From contig OZ242318.1 of NCBI GenBank assembly GCA_965208105.1, forward strand, positions 3,904,001-3,968,000: 64,000 nucleotides of DNA, written 5' to 3'. Origin of the DNA: Candidatus Latescibacterota bacterium (lineage in GTDB: Bacteria > Latescibacterota > UBA2968 > UBA8231). Below the pieces are notes generated by a model, which did not search any database, was not told the DNA's origin, and saw nothing but the letters and a program-made list of their open reading frames with translations. A program made the position numbers and the translations under genes. Positions 38,128-42,068 of this stretch are shown here, in pieces. Numbering within the stretch: position 1 is the stretch's first letter; the number at the start of each line of letters is the position of its first letter.

Positions 38128-39264
38128 ATGGGAACAGCAAAGCGCAATCCGACCCGGCCGGTCGAAATCGGCTCCACCACCATAGGAGACGGGCATCCCA
38201 TTGCCGTTCAGAGCATGGCCGCGACCCGCACCCGTGATATTGCAGCTACGGTGCGCCAGGTCCAGCTTCTGGAGCAAGCCGGCGCCGACATAATCCGCAT
38301 AGCGGTGGACAGCAAGCGCGACGTCGAGGCCCTCGCCCGGATCAGCCGGCATGCCACCGTTCCGCTCAGCGTCGATCTCCAGGAAAACTACCGGCTCGCA
38401 AGCCTGGTGGCTCCCTACGTCCAGAAGATCCGCTACAATCCCGGTCATCTCTACCACCACGAAAAGGACCGTCCGGTGGAGGAAAAGGTCGCCTTCATTG
38501 CCACGGAGGCCGAAAACAACGACTGCGCCATTCGCATCGGAGTGAACTGCGGCTCGGTGGATCCGGAGAAGCGCGACCGGTTCGATCCGGAGGATTCGAT
38601 TTCGCCCATGCTGGCCTCGGCGCTGGAACACTGCGAGATCCTCGACGGACGGGGATTCCAGCGCTACTGCGTATCCCTCAAGGATTCCGACCCCCAAAAG
38701 GTCATCGAAGCCAATTTGCGCTTCGCGGACCAGCGCCCGGACGTGCCTTTGCACCTGGGAGTGACCGAAGCCGGAATGCCGCCCGACGGAGTCATCAAGA
38801 CGCGGATCGCATTCGAGCAGCTCATTTCGCGGGGCATCGGCGATACCATTCGCGTCTCCCTCACCTTGCCCTTCGATGACAAGGGCGAGGAGGTTCACGT
38901 GGGCAGGGAGATTCTCAGGGACATCGAGGCGGGGCGCTTTCGATCCGTTCCCAAATTCTTCGGTACGGGGATGAACATCATCTCCTGCCCTTCCTGCTCC
39001 AGGGTCGAAAACGAGGCCTTCATCGAGTTGGCCCAGAAGGTGCGCGAAGTGACGGCCTACGCCAGCGAGCACTCCATCACCATCGCCGTCATGGGTTGCC
39101 GGGTCAACGGTCCTGGTGAAACCGATGATGCCGACCTGGGATTGTGGTGCGCCCCCAATTTCGTCAATCTGAAAAGAGGACCCGAGCATATAGGGCATTT
39201 TTCCTACGACGAGGTCCTCGGCCGCCTGAAGGAAGAGGTGGACCAGCTGATCTCGTCCCGCTAG
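38128..39264 (+). CDS. ispG: HMBPP synthase (MEP pathway)
   Basis: [45 protein letters not shown]. Confidence 0.95.
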
Positions 39265-39427
39265 CAGCCCGTTGATAAAGTTGCTCTGCAGGCGAGGCCG
39301 AGTCATGGCGGCCGAAGGCAAGGCGTGCGACCGAGGCGAATCGAGGGGCTTCGGGGAGGGAGCGCAACGCCGTATTCGAACGCCAGGTCCGGCCGCAGCC
39401 CGGATGGACTTTTTCAACGGGCTGCTA
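39262..39427. mobile_element. 166-bp MITE (family C)
   Basis: 14-bp TIR TAGCAGCCCGTTGA / TCAACGGGCTGCTA; a partial second copy lies at 60196-60226. Confidence 0.8.
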
Positions 39428-39504
39428 TGTTGCGCCCGCCTCAACCTCGGAAACGGCCGCCAATCCTTCACCACCGGGCTCCGTCCCCGGATAGGTGATT
39501 TTCC

Positions 39505-40566
39505 TCAGGCCACCTCAGCGCACGCCACCGCCTCGGCGTGCGCGTTCCTCAACATTCTCTCGGTGGTTTCCCAGCCTACGCACTCGTCGGTAATGGAGAC
39601 CCCGTACTGCAGGTGCTCCAGATCCTCGGGAATCTTCTGGTTTCCGGGGTTGAGGTTGCTTTCGATCATCACCCCGATCAACGCGTCGTTGCCCGACCTG
39701 CGCTGGTGGACTACGCTTTCGCAAACAGCTTCCTGGAGTTCGTGCTTTTTGCCCGAGTTGGCATGGCTGCAGTCGACCATGAACACGGGGTCGAGGCCGC
39801 CCTGGTGCATCTGCCGCGCCGCCTCCTCGATGCTCTCGGGCTCGTAGTTGGGACCTCTGCCACCCCCGCGCAGCACCACGTGCCTCCAGGGATTGCCGGT
39901 GGTCCTGACTACGCAGGTCCGGCCTTCCTGGTCGATGCCAAGGAAACTGTGCGGATGCCGGGCCGACTCCATGGCGTCGATGGCTACCTGCAGGTTGCCG
40001 TCGGTGCTGTTCTTGAATCCAACGGGCATTGACAAGCCGCTTGCCATCTCCCGGTGAGTCTGGGACTCGGTGGTCCGCGCGCCGATCGCCGCCCAGCAGA
40101 TCAGGTCGGCGGTGTACTGGGGGGTGATCGGGTCCAGCATCTCCGTTGCGGCGGGAAGTCCCATGCCGTTGATCTCGAGCAGGAGCCTGCGGGCGATCTT
40201 CAATCCGTTCGGCATATCCCCGGAACCGTCGAGGTGGGGATCGTAGACCAGGCCCTTCCACCCGATGGTGGTGCGGGGTTTTTCAAAGTAGACGCGCATC
40301 ACAATGCAGAGGCGGTCTTCAAGCTGCGACCTCAGTTCATTCAAGCGGTGAGCATACTCCTGCGCTGCATCCAGATCGTGCAGCGAACAGGGTCCGACGA
40401 TGGCCAACAGCCTCTGGTCCTCCTTGCGCAGGATGCGCTTGATTTCCTCGCGTCCCCTGGTCACCGTCTCGTTGGCGATCTCGGTCATCGGCAACTCTTC
40501 CTTCAATCTGCGGGGTGACAAAAGGGTCTGGGTGGCGCGAATGTTCAGGTCATAGGTTTTTTCCAT
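39505..40566 (-). CDS. Class I (type I-alpha) DAHP synthase, AroF/G/H family
   Basis: [45 protein letters not shown]. Confidence 0.95.
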
Positions 40567-40593
40567 GGAATGTTCCCCTTTCTGCTGGGCAAT

Positions 40594-40620
40594 AAAAAAG
40601 CCCCTGAATATTCAGGGGCT
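40594..40620 (-). terminator. Attenuator terminator in the DAHP synthase leader
   Basis: Minus strand AGCCCCTGAATATTCAGGGGCT followed by a T-run, about 28 nt before the start codon. Confidence 0.9.
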
Positions 40621-40657
40621 AGAAGCGGAATTGATCAAAGGCGTACGCCGGTACCTT

Positions 40658-40723
40658 CTAACCCCCGGAAAATTTCCAGGTGAAAAAATAAAATGAAAAG
40701 TACCGCGCGGTCCGACAGGTCAT
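40658..40723 (-). CDS. Aromatic amino-acid leader peptide MTCRTARYFSFYFFTWKFSGG
   Basis: 21 codons with 5 Phe, 2 Tyr and 1 Trp clustered; lies between the promoter and the attenuator. Confidence 0.85.
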   Translation of the reverse strand: MTCRTARYFSFYFFTWKFSGG

Positions 40724-40764
40724 GTTCTGCAGCCTCGGTAAAGGCGGGAAAAAATAGAGTTGGA

Positions 40765-40793
40765 ATAATAATTAATCCCATCCACTTCGTCAA
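40765..40793 (-). promoter_or_regulatory. Sigma70 promoter for the leader and DAHP synthase
   Basis: TTGACG-17 bp-TATTAT on the minus strand. Confidence 0.75.
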
Positions 40794-40928
40794 GTAAGCA
40801 AACCAGTTCGAGGGGGCTTCGAGGCTTGTCCGGCTGGAAATTTACCGTTATTTTCCTGCCTCGCCATTTCAAACCGCAATAATGATCCGCAATTCAGAAA
40901 ATGGAAATGCCATCACCAGGAGGAGATC

Positions 40929-41669
40929 ATGGAAAACCCGATTCGCGCATCCCTGGCCCAGGGCCAACCGTCGATTGGCAGCTGGCTCAATCTGGCTTCT
41001 CCCCTCGCCGCCGAGGTTATGGCGGCGGCCGGCTACCCCTGGATCGTGGTGGACGCTGAGCACGCGCCATTCGATCTCGATCTCATTACCCACACCTTCC
41101 GCGCCATCGAGTCGCGGGGGTCCGTTCCCATCGTCCGCACCTGGGACCACGACCCCGTCACCGTAGCCCGCCTCCTGGACGCAGGCGCCTACGGCATCAT
41201 CTTTCCCCATGTAAGCACTCCCGAGCAGGCTGAAATACTCGCCAGGGCGATGCGCTATCCTCCGGCGGGAACGCGTTCTTCGGGGACTGGCCGCTGCGTG
41301 ACCATCTCGCCCGACTACCGCAGCAAGGCCAACGACGAGGTTCTTTGTATCCCGCAGATCGAGGATCTTCAGGGAGTGGACAACGGCGAGGCGATCGCCC
41401 GCGTCGAAGGGGTGGATATCGGGTTTCTGGGCCCCAACGATCTGGCACTCTCCATGGGGGTGGAAGCAGGGCATCCGGACCACGAAGCGGCTCTGCAGCG
41501 TTTTCTCGCCGGCTGTCGGCGGGCGGGCAAGCCATGCGGTCTCCCCGTGCCAGACTCGGCTGGTGTATCCCGGCGCCTCCAGGAAGGTTTTCAGTTTATC
41601 GATCTGGGGAACGACCTGCGGTTTCTGGAAGGGGTAGCCAAAAAACAACTCGAAGACGTTCAACAATAG
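40929..41669 (+). CDS. HpcH/HpaI aldolase family
   Basis: VDAEH, LLDAGAYG, YPPAGTR, QIE, GPNDL. Confidence 0.9.
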   Translation: MENPIRASLAQGQPSIGSWLNLASPLAAEVMAAAGYPWIVVDAEHAPFDLDLITHTFRAIESRGSVPIVRTWDHDPVTVARLLDAGAYGIIFPHVSTPEQAEILARAMRYPPAGTRSSGTGRCVTISPDYRSKANDEVLCIPQIEDLQGVDNGEAIARVEGVDIGFLGPNDLALSMGVEAGHPDHEAALQRFLAGCRRAGKPCGLPVPDSAGVSRRLQEGFQFIDLGNDLRFLEGVAKKQLEDVQQ

Positions 41670-41696
41670 GCGGGGGAAGTTCGGTCCGGCGGGATA

Positions 41697-41863
41697 CTAG
41701 TGCCTGCTTGCGTAATTCCGCGTGAATTCGGCCGCCGCTGCATCCCGGCTCGCGGCGTTGCCCTCCCTCGCCGTACACTCCAGGTACGACTCGCTCAGGC
41801 GCCTTGCGAGCCGGGCGCTTCTGCGCCCTCGTTCGTACGCTTAATTACGCAAGCAGGCACTAG
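41697..41863. mobile_element. 167-bp MITE (family B)
   Basis: Perfect 21-bp TIR CTAGTGCCTGCTTGCGTAATT / AATTACGCAAGCAGGCACTAG. Confidence 0.9.
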
Positions 41864-42068
41864 CTCCGCGGTGTTGGAGCTGATTCCAGGCTCCGGGCAA
41901 GAAGGCCGGTGGGATATATTTTCCTTTGCGCCCAGGCACCGGCATGCCGGTTGCCGTCCAGGATGCTTGCGGTGGAATATCGAGAACGAGTGAACGCGGA
42001 TTCCCCCTCACATGTCTTGCCGCCATCTCTCTCTCTCCATATATTCATCAGGGAAAAAGGAGACTAGT

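What the first reader, a model, noticed from the sequence alone, without database searches (positions are those of the whole stretch)
40566..40793. Complete tri-aromatic (Phe/Tyr/Trp) ribosome-mediated attenuator on DAHP synthase
Seen on minus, in order: promoter; leader MTCRTARYFSFYFFTWKFSGG*; hairpin 1:2 (CCTGGAAA/TTTCCGGG); antiterminator 2:3 (GGGGTTAGAAG/CTTCTAGCCCC); terminator 3:4 with U-tract. Known: pheA and trp attenuators mostly sense one amino acid, and E. coli DAHP synthases are controlled by TyrR/TrpR and feedback. Inference: one leader integrates all three end products at the pathway entry step. It is absent from the ORF track.
Basis: partly seen in the sequence, partly recalled or inferred. 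Interest (0 to 1): 0.8.

Follow-up and report, generated by a model that had tools for sequence, protein, structure and literature searches.

The report
Aromatic leader-peptide attenuator before DAHP synthase
A tiny upstream gene packed with phenylalanine, tyrosine and one tryptophan codon, followed by a switchable transcription stop signal, most likely lets this bacterium turn on its only recognisable first enzyme of aromatic amino-acid synthesis when those amino acids run short; this is a well-formed new example of a textbook kind of switch.

Summary
On the minus strand, 40793..40566, lie these elements in order:
- a sigma-70-like promoter;
- a 21-codon ORF with 8 aromatic codons (5 Phe, 2 Tyr, 1 Trp);
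- a 1:2 hairpin;
- a 13-bp antiterminator that overlaps the leader stop codon;
- a 9-bp terminator with a T-run;
- an AroFGH-type DAHP synthase gene.

The antiterminator complementarity beat all 1000 shuffles. Genome-wide, this is the top of only two aromatic-rich small ORFs followed by a terminator.

A leader plus terminator recurs in 9 of 12 close orthologues in the same family. It was found upstream of 0 of 29 paralogue loci. It also recurs in Desulfobacterales, Dehalococcoidia and Polyangiaceae relatives: 15 of 128 loci on the sense strand against 1 of 128 in a reverse-complement control.

The most likely reading is a classical ribosome-mediated attenuator that reads charged tRNA-Phe and tRNA-Tyr. 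Trp sensing rests on one well-placed codon that is kept only within the genus, so "tri-aromatic" is only partly supported.

The closest precedent is the Corynebacterium glutamicum aroR-aroF attenuator. No Rfam family matches. This scan has noted similar leaders on other DNA before. I found no usable expression data.

Verdict: a real feature, and a new member of a known kind.

The parts
40765..40793 (-). Sigma-70-like promoter (-35 hexamer, 17-nt spacer, -10 hexamer)
   Evidence: 10 of 12 consensus matches. It is the only site found in 39000-42000. The same -35 hexamer and 17-nt spacing are seen by eye in L002-L005, L007 and L111-L113.
40733..40736 (-). Short Shine-Dalgarno-like purine motif, 9 nt before the leader ATG
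   Evidence: Read from the sequence and the upstream print-out. It is only 4 nt long, so this is weak evidence.
40658..40723 (-). Leader ORF: 21 codons plus a TAG stop, with 5 Phe, 2 Tyr and 1 Trp
   Evidence: Four of the 5 Phe codons are TTT, which makes up only 23.4% of Phe codons in 1,524 long open frames of this genome.
40670..40702 (-). Run of regulatory codons (codons 8-18). The Trp codon is 40678-40676.
   Evidence: With the ribosome A-site on codons 7-16 the antiterminator forms. It weakens at codons 17-18 and is lost from codon 19 to the stop.
40646..40709 (-). 1:2 (anti-antiterminator) hairpin complex. The outer stem is 40709-40696 with 40658-40646; the inner hairpin is 40683-40662.
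   Evidence: It is the MFE structure. On alignment A1 the 1:2 helices plus the terminator are 84.1% paired, 7 of 31 pairs change on both sides, and 0 of 500 shuffles reach the score.
40655..40667 (-). Antiterminator 5' arm (region 2). It contains the leader stop codon.
   Evidence: 13 bp, fold about -24 kcal/mol; duplex -24.0 against -11.6 +/- 2.3, with 0 of 1000 shuffles reaching it.
40613..40625 (-). Antiterminator 3' arm (region 3). It overlaps 8 of the 9 nt of the terminator's 5' arm.
   Evidence: 79.8% of cells paired and 2 of 12 pairs change on both sides. The helix register is ambiguous, because sliding by +1 gives 81%.
40591..40620 (-). Intrinsic terminator: a 9-bp stem, a 4-nt loop and a T-run
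   Evidence: Across 7 aligned sequences 100% of cells are paired and one pair is compensatory (G-C in 5, A-U in 2).
40574..40580 (-). Shine-Dalgarno-like motif of the DAHP synthase gene
   Evidence: Read from the sequence. It lies 7 nt before the ATG.
39505..40566 (-). AroFGH-type (class I alpha) DAHP synthase, 353 aa. It is the regulated gene.
   Evidence: NF009395 scores 527.8 bits (cut-off 343) and TIGR00034 scores 488.9 bits (cut-off 173.2). It is the only PF00793 match in the genome, and PF01474 has no match.

Best explanation
This is a classical ribosome-mediated (leader-peptide) transcription attenuator. It controls the only DAHP synthase gene I could recognise in this genome.

Transcription starts about 35 nt before a 21-codon leader ORF. 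What happens next depends on the ribosome.
- Ample supply: when charged tRNA-Phe and tRNA-Tyr are plentiful, the ribosome runs to the leader stop codon. That codon lies inside region 2, so the ribosome masks region 2. Region 3 is then free to pair with region 4, the terminator forms, and transcription stops 32 nt before the DAHP synthase start.
- Short supply: when an aromatic aminoacyl-tRNA is scarce, the ribosome stalls on codons 8-16. It then covers region 1 and the inner hairpin but leaves region 2 free. Region 2 pairs with region 3 before region 4 is made, the terminator cannot form, and the gene is transcribed.
- No translation: region 1 pairs with region 2 first, and the terminator forms.

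Shown here: the sequence elements, their mutually exclusive pairings, the position of the codons relative to the switch, and conservation in relatives.

Inferred: that the leader is translated, that stalling happens, and which amino acids count. I rate a Phe/Tyr response as likely. I put a real Trp contribution through the single TGG codon at about 0.4.
For: Anatomy: promoter, ORF, terminator and gene are all in place.

Fold model: I folded the RNA from the ribosome's leading edge to the terminator loop.
- With the A-site on codons 7-16, the 13-bp antiterminator holds 11 core pairs.
- It holds 9 pairs at codon 17 and 6 at codon 18.
- It holds none from codon 19 to the stop.
- The free full-length RNA folds as 1:2 plus terminator.

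Chance controls: the antiterminator duplex was reached by 0 of 1000 shuffles.

No second promoter: no other promoter-like site was found, and only 32 nt separate the terminator from the ATG. The gene must therefore be read through from the leader promoter.

Conservation in the family: 9 of the 12 orthologue loci at 64% identity or more have a leader plus terminator. They span 4 genera, and the two largest groups share the same promoter spacing. None of the 29 loci of the 48-55% paralogue has one, and none of the 7 loci at 36-39% identity.

Nature of the constraint: among the leaders, Phe and Tyr codons swap and synonymous codons change while the aromatic run is kept. That points to selection on the codons read.

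Wider distribution: similar leaders occur in at least 3 further DAHP synthase clades.
- The scan found 15 of 128 loci on the sense strand against 1 of 128 on the reverse complement.
- In all 15 the upstream antiterminator arm ends within -15 to +10 nt of the leader stop.

Same device elsewhere in the genome: trpE carries its own Trp-codon leader with a promoter and a terminator.

Precedent: C. glutamicum aroR-aroF (passages of PMC11802643 and of PMC4046766).
Against: - No expression data. The only RNA-library material is contigs of a 95-99% relative that cover parts of the coding region and not the leader.
- At thermodynamic equilibrium on the full transcript, the terminator form wins at 20 of 21 modelled ribosome positions. 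The switch therefore works only if folding is kinetic, as is assumed for all such attenuators.
- With no ribosome, and with the RNA cut at the terminator loop, the antiterminator is still the lowest-energy fold. The 1:2 trap is thus not strongly favoured by energy.
- The leader's Shine-Dalgarno motif is short. In the sister genus it lies 13-15 nt from the start codon.
- Three of the 12 close orthologues lack the leader.
- Antiterminator covariation is modest and its register is ambiguous. In 5 of the 15 loci the complementarity was not unusual, with 15-42 of 300 shuffles as good.
- The Trp codon is not kept outside the genus.
- In C. glutamicum the leader's Tyr codon did not confer a Tyr response.
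Confidence: 0.8

Rival explanations
1. The terminator and antiterminator switch is real but is set by something other than the ribosome. A protein or a small molecule would bind the leader RNA, as in a TRAP-like, PyrR-like or riboswitch-like attenuator, and the aromatic ORF would be incidental.
For: Two close orthologues, L006 and L007, keep the promoter and terminator without any aromatic ORF. L007 has a highly structured leader of about 240 nt. So control of this gene without a leader peptide exists in the family.
Against: - No Rfam family comes near threshold in the window: the best match is 20.5 bits against a 90-bit cut-off. None reaches threshold in 12 related loci.
- The aromatic run is the best-kept feature across lineages whose RNA sequences otherwise differ.
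- The boundary of the switch falls exactly at the end of the codon run.
- The antiterminator arm abuts the leader stop codon in all 15 loci.
Confidence: 0.07
2. The promoter, ORF and terminator unit is an independent gene for a small RNA or a small hydrophobic peptide, and DAHP synthase is transcribed on its own.
For: The unit has its own promoter and terminator and would give a transcript of about 165 nt. Weak Rfam sRNA matches (PrrF, anti-hemB) land on it.
Against: - Those matches are far below threshold and align only the promoter-like and terminator parts.
- No promoter-like site lies between the terminator and the gene, and only 32 nt separate them.
- The unit is always found directly upstream of the same gene, in several phyla.
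- Phe and Tyr swap freely within the peptide, which does not fit a peptide with a structural role.
Confidence: 0.05
3. It is a chance assembly of an ORF and hairpins in an AT-richer intergenic region, with no function.
For: Small ORFs are abundant: 145,230 starts in the genome.
Against: - 0 of 1000 shuffles reach the antiterminator duplex.
- Only 2 aromatic ORFs with a terminator exist genome-wide.
- The unit is conserved in 9 of 12 orthologues and in other phyla, against 1 of 128 control hits.
Confidence: 0.02

Closest known systems
Corynebacterium glutamicum aroR-aroF leader-peptide attenuator (Neshat et al. 2014, J Biotechnol 190:55). I saw it only through passages of the review PMC11802643 and of PMC4046766; I did not read the original paper.
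   Same: A short leader ORF with mixed aromatic codons lies upstream of a DAHP synthase gene. Ribosome stalling raises transcription. Attenuation was shown experimentally there.
   Different: - The aroR leader carries only a Phe-Tyr-Phe motif. Here 8 of 21 codons are aromatic, and one of them is Trp.
- The host there is an actinobacterium with a second DAHP synthase. Here the regulated gene is the only PF00793 or PF01474 match in the genome.
- Common descent was not tested, because I had no aroR sequence to compare.
E. coli pheL-pheA and trpL-trpEDCBA attenuators (Rfam Phe_leader and Trp_leader; the names and details are recalled)
   Same: The four-region logic is the same: 1:2, 2:3 and 3:4 pairings, regulatory codons in or next to region 1, and an intrinsic terminator before the structural gene.
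   Different: - Those leaders read a single amino acid and control terminal-branch genes, not the pathway's entry step.
- Neither family appears among the 6 Rfam matches at E-value 10 or better in this region, so this is not a sequence member of those families.
Multivalent attenuators of the thr and ilv operons of enterobacteria (recalled, not checked here)
   Same: One leader peptide mixes codons for several end products, so a shortage of any one of them can relieve termination.
   Different: They act on different pathways and amino acids. Here the three end products share one entry enzyme.
The trpE leader of this same genome (G000:C1:3207274-3207360, outside the window)
   Same: It has a promoter, a short ORF with regulatory codons (3 Trp codons within 5), a strong terminator and then the structural gene.
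   Different: It is specific for Trp and controls the Trp branch. The Trp branch therefore has its own sensor, separate from the entry-step leader.

Membership tests
Classical ribosome-mediated (leader-peptide) transcription attenuator | A promoter followed by a short translatable ORF in the 5' leader of a biosynthetic gene | tested here: met
   The promoter is and the ATG-started 21-codon ORF. A 4-nt SD-like motif lies 9 nt upstream. Translation itself is not shown.
Classical ribosome-mediated (leader-peptide) transcription attenuator | A cluster of codons for the pathway's end product or products in the leader ORF | tested here: met
   8 of 21 codons are Phe, Tyr or Trp, against 6.9% of codons in long open frames. 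This is the top aromatic small ORF with a terminator in the genome.
Classical ribosome-mediated (leader-peptide) transcription attenuator | An intrinsic terminator between the leader ORF and the structural gene | tested here: met
   a 9-bp stem with a T-run, ending 32 nt before the ATG.
Classical ribosome-mediated (leader-peptide) transcription attenuator | An antiterminator that excludes the terminator, and an upstream hairpin that excludes the antiterminator | tested here: met
   Covariation supports the 1:2 helices and the terminator. It is modest for the antiterminator.
Classical ribosome-mediated (leader-peptide) transcription attenuator | Stalling at the regulatory codons frees region 2, while a ribosome at the stop codon masks it | tested here: met
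   Fold model. The same step pattern appears in L002-L005, L052 and L105. This is a model, not a measurement.
Classical ribosome-mediated (leader-peptide) transcription attenuator | Read-through rises when the cognate amino acid or charged tRNA is limiting | not testable with these tools
   No raw RNA reads of this organism were on offer.
Rfam leader families (Phe_leader, Trp_leader and others) | A covariance-model score at or above the family's gathering score | tested here: not met
   6 matches at E-value 10 or better in 39500-41500, none near its gathering score. The one leader-family match, leuA-Halobacteria at 14.1 bits against a 47.9-bit cut-off, lies at 41229-41269, outside the element; 0 matches at gathering score in 12 related loci.
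C. glutamicum aroR-aroF attenuator | An aromatic-codon leader directly upstream of a DAHP synthase gene | tested here: met
   This shows that it works alike. It does not show common descent.
C. glutamicum aroR-aroF attenuator | Sequence or structure homology to aroR | not tested
   No aroR sequence was fetched.
T-box or riboswitch leader | A match to a known ligand-binding or tRNA-binding RNA model | tested here: not met

The most novel reading that the evidence does not exclude
Mixed Phe/Tyr/Trp leader peptides in front of AroFGH-type DAHP synthase genes form a widespread class of multivalent attenuators that is not in Rfam. In this reading, the ratio of Phe, Tyr and Trp codons and their position relative to the switch are tuned lineage by lineage. 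The entry enzyme would then read a weighted sum of three charged-tRNA pools. The ratios seen here are 5:2:1 in this genus, about 5:5:0 in the sister genus, 0:7:0 in one deltaproteobacterial MAG, and 4:1:2 in a Polyangiaceae MAG. In this genome, where the enzyme is the only recognisable DAHP synthase, the single Trp codon placed at the last effective position would give a real third input.
Probability: 0.3. Interest if true: 0.55.

Novelty: new member of a known kind. Interest (0 to 1): 0.38.

Why it matters
DAHP synthase commits carbon to all three aromatic amino acids. In the textbook enterobacterial case it is controlled by repressors and by feedback-inhibited isozymes.

Here a genome with a single recognisable DAHP synthase appears to use one RNA switch instead, reading aromatic aminoacyl-tRNA supply directly. 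The same solution turns up in several distant lineages.

Three practical points follow:
- These leader ORFs are missing from gene calls and from Rfam. A covariance model or an annotation rule for aromatic leaders before DAHP synthase genes would fill that gap.
- The varying Phe:Tyr:Trp make-up offers a natural series for testing how codon number and position set the sensitivity of an attenuator.
- The element is an obvious target for deregulating the shikimate pathway in these organisms.

None of this changes how attenuation is understood.

Tried and rejected
- Expression evidence. Only assembled contigs were available. Two metatranscriptome runs hold contigs 95-99% like parts of the coding region (39429-39850 and 39943-40298) and none over the leader. 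Contigs cannot show starts, ends or levels, so this says nothing about the leader either way. A strain-variant DNA contig (X7) differs at 42 letters and 4 gaps over 1601 nt. Only about 31 of its differences were listed, so I draw no conclusion about which leader positions vary.
- Equilibrium folding of the whole transcript with the ribosome footprint masked. It gave the terminator at 20 of 21 positions. I replaced it with the co-transcriptional model, which is the appropriate one, but the equilibrium result is reported as a caveat.
- A strict perfect-stem terminator rule. It missed terminators in L057, L078 and L082 that are visible by eye. A relaxed rule recovered L057 and L078 but not L082, whose T-run is weak.
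I repeated the analysis with ORFs computed inside the script.
- Literature. I found no description of such a leader outside Corynebacterium. I also read passages of Rodionov 2004 (PMC545781), Naville and Gautheret 2010 (PMC2965389), Seliverstov 2005 (PMC1262725) and PMC3937554. Subscription papers were not searchable; the ones I recall as relevant are Vitreschak 2004, Panina 2001 and Merino and Yanofsky 2005. I did not open supplements.
- Other aromatic-pathway genes of this genome. pheA (a PF00800 match) follows the upstream ORF directly and has no leader. At my thresholds the genome scan found no other Phe-rich, Tyr-rich or aromatic-rich leader with a terminator that looked like an attenuator.
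- Earlier notes of this scan: a look-up by place and by sequence returned nothing.
Full report
**1. The observation**

I read the minus strand of 39000-41300 and listed the ORFs. The elements come in this order:
- A promoter-like site at 40793->40765. It matches 10 of 12 consensus positions with a 17-nt spacer. It is the only such site in 39000-42000, where shuffles expect 0.5 +/- 0.8.
- A 4-nt Shine-Dalgarno-like motif at 40736-40733.
- A terminator hairpin at 40620..40599 with 9 pairs (6 G-C), a 4-nt loop and a T-run.
- A 353-aa ORF at 40566..39505.

The 353-aa ORF is an AroFGH-type DAHP synthase. NF009395 scores 527.8 bits against a cut-off of 343, and TIGR00034 scores 488.9 against 173.2. 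The isozyme-specific AroH and AroG models both fall below their cut-offs.

The upstream neighbour is a divergent HpcH/HpaI-type aldolase gene. The downstream neighbour is a convergent ispG. The terminator therefore cannot belong to another gene, and DAHP synthase is transcribed alone.

- The 1:2 hairpin has 7 pairs, not 8. It is nested in a longer outer stem, 40709-40696 with 40658-40646.
- The antiterminator extends to 13 bp, 40667-40655 with 40625-40613.

**2. More than chance?**

- The leader folds at -52.1 kcal/mol. Shuffles give -41.8 +/- 3.7, so z is -2.82, and 1 of 200 shuffles folds as well.
- The antiterminator duplex is -24.0 kcal/mol. Dinucleotide-preserving shuffles of the upstream 92 nt give -11.6 +/- 2.3, and 0 of 1000 reach the observed value.
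- The whole genome is 4.85 Mb with 61.6% G+C and 145,230 small-ORF starts. There were 63 raw hits with at least 6 aromatic residues in a 10-residue window. Only 2 distinct stops also have a terminator-like hairpin within about 110 nt, and this leader (7 in 10) is the stronger.
- Phe, Tyr and Trp together make up 6.9% of codons in 1,524 long open frames, against 8 of 21 in the leader.
- Four of the 5 Phe codons in the leader are TTT, which accounts for only 23.4% of Phe codons genome-wide.

**3. How the switch would work**

I masked a ribosome footprint and folded the RNA from its leading edge, taken as 12 nt past the first A-site base, to the terminator loop. This is the state just before region 4 is transcribed.
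- A-site on codons 7-16: the antiterminator forms at about -24 kcal/mol and holds 8 of the 9 nt of the terminator's 5' arm.
- Codon 17: 9 pairs are left.
- Codon 18: 6 pairs are left.
- Codon 19 to the stop: none are left.

The leader stop codon lies inside region 2, so a terminating ribosome masks the antiterminator. The free full-length RNA folds as 1:2 plus terminator.

By this model the effective codons are Tyr8, Phe9, Phe11, Tyr12, Phe13, Phe14 and Trp16. Phe18 lies beyond the useful range. Trp16 sits at the last effective position.

There are two caveats:
- At equilibrium on the full transcript the terminator wins at 20 of 21 ribosome positions.
- With no ribosome and truncated RNA, the antiterminator is still the lowest-energy fold.

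The device therefore depends on the order of folding during transcription, as is assumed for all attenuators of this type.

**4. Relatives in the same family**

I searched 41 related genomes and then all 76 genomes of the order, which form one family. Two DAHP synthase groups appear.

Group A is at least 64% identical to the query and has 12 loci. A 13th partial hit, at the edge of a G051 contig, had no upstream DNA and was not examined. Nine of the 12 loci carry an aromatic leader ORF and a terminator:
- both genomes of the window's genus;
- all 5 genomes of a second genus;
- one genome in each of two further genera.

Three of the 12 do not:
- L006 and L007 keep the promoter and terminator but have no aromatic ORF.
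- L008 has no intergenic space.

Group B is 48-55% identical. It is the only copy in most genomes of the family. None of the 29 loci examined has such a leader. One locus, L119, has an aromatic-rich ORF that runs into the gene start and has no terminator. None of the 7 loci at 36-39% identity has a leader either.

In the window's genome and in its congener, the group A gene is the only match. In the window's genome it is also the only PF00793 match, and PF01474 has no match.

**5. Conservation of the structure**

I aligned 7 leaders from two genera: 205 columns with 71% mean identity.
- For the 1:2 helices plus the terminator, 84.1% of cells are paired. Seven of 31 pairs change on both sides. 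0 of 500 shuffles reach the score, and slid controls give 38-55%.
- For the antiterminator, 79.8% of cells are paired and 2 of 12 pairs change on both sides. Sliding by one column pairs equally well, so the register is ambiguous.

These sequences are close kin, and the structure was derived from one of them, so this is supportive rather than decisive.

The leader codons are more telling. Phe and Tyr codons swap places and synonymous codons vary, yet the aromatic run persists.

**6. Beyond the family**

Among 80 loci from named public genomes, aromatic leaders with terminators occur in these records:
- Desulfococcaceae, Desulfobacteraceae and a "Deltaproteobacteria" MAG (L042, L045, L057);
- two Dehalococcoidia (L052, L105);
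- a Polyangiaceae MAG (L078). A Myxococcales MAG (L082) has a similar leader but a weaker T-run.

A uniform scan required at least 4 aromatic residues in 8 plus a terminator within 110 nt. It hit 15 of 128 loci on the sense strand and 1 of 128 on the reverse complement.

On a protein tree these 15 fall in at least four separate DAHP synthase clades. That was a quick tree with a midpoint root, and it does not decide between one origin and several.

In all 15 loci the upstream antiterminator arm ends within -15 to +10 nt of the leader stop. The complementarity was unusual in 10 of the 15, where at most 8 of 300 shuffles did as well. It was not unusual in the other 5.

The codon make-up varies from lineage to lineage. 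It is 5 Phe, 2 Tyr, 1 Trp here, and about 5 Phe and 4-6 Tyr with no Trp in the sister genus. L057 has 0 Phe and 7 Tyr, L042 has 5 Phe, 4 Tyr and 2 Trp, and L078 has 4 Phe, 1 Tyr and 2 Trp.

**7. Context in this genome**

trpE lies outside the window and has its own leader. That leader has a promoter, a 28-codon ORF with three Trp codons within five, and a strong terminator. The organism therefore uses this kind of device elsewhere, and the Trp branch has a separate sensor. pheA has no leader.

**8. What is known**

- No Rfam family comes near threshold in the window or in 12 related loci.
- The closest published case I found is C. glutamicum aroR-aroF. It is a leader with a Phe-Tyr-Phe motif upstream of a DAHP synthase gene. 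It responded to Phe limitation but not to Tyr limitation. I read passages of PMC11802643 and PMC4046766, not the original paper.
- Six full-text searches and passages of four comparative papers gave no other description. Several relevant subscription papers could not be searched.
- A word look-up in this scan's own earlier notes returned 206 notes, in at least 203 genomes, that hold all the search words. The 8 notes shown describe similar aromatic leaders before DAHP synthase in cyanobacteria, planctomycetes, Chloroflexota, actinobacteria and archaea. These are unchecked AI notes. They show that the scan has met this theme before on other DNA. One of them, which describes an 8-codon leader, prompted the relaxed re-scan.

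**9. Verdict**

The feature is real and is almost certainly a leader-peptide transcription attenuator of DAHP synthase. It is a new member of a known kind, in a lineage and with a codon make-up that I did not find described. It adds no new principle.

The "tri-aromatic" claim is the uncertain part:
- For it: the Trp codon is well placed, it is kept within the genus, and Trp codons recur in some distant leaders.
- Against it: there is only one such codon, the sister genera lack it, and the tested precedent warns that codon content does not guarantee a response.

Noticed in passing
G000:C1:3207210-3207446 (+), outside the window: trpE has its own classical-looking attenuator. It has a promoter-like site and a 28-codon leader ORF (3207274-3207360) with three Trp codons within five. 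A strong terminator hairpin with a T-run follows, and then the trpE start at about 3207446.
   Followed up: partly
L007 (about -300 to -28 relative to the DAHP synthase start) and L006 (about -114 to -29): Two close orthologues in one genus keep the conserved promoter and a terminator but have no aromatic leader ORF. L007 instead has a leader of about 240 nt that folds into one long, very stable structure (-142 kcal/mol) just upstream of the terminator hairpin. No Rfam family matches it. It may be a different kind of leader control on the same gene.
   Followed up: partly
L042, -98 to -25 relative to the gene start: In a Desulfococcaceae MAG the aromatic leader is followed by two terminator-like hairpins in tandem before the DAHP synthase gene.
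   Followed up: no
Whole genome G000: PF00793 covers KDO-8-phosphate synthase as well as class I DAHP synthases (this coverage is recalled, not checked here). It has only one match in the genome, the gene studied here, so no KDO-8-P synthase was recognised with this query. The genome is a single contig with an estimated completeness of 93.9%.
   Followed up: no
G000:C1:1854070-1853954 (-), outside the window: This is the only other small ORF in the genome with at least 6 aromatic residues in 10 and a terminator-like hairpin downstream. It is Trp- and Phe-rich, and the hairpin is weak and lies 76 nt after the stop. I did not examine its context.
   Followed up: no
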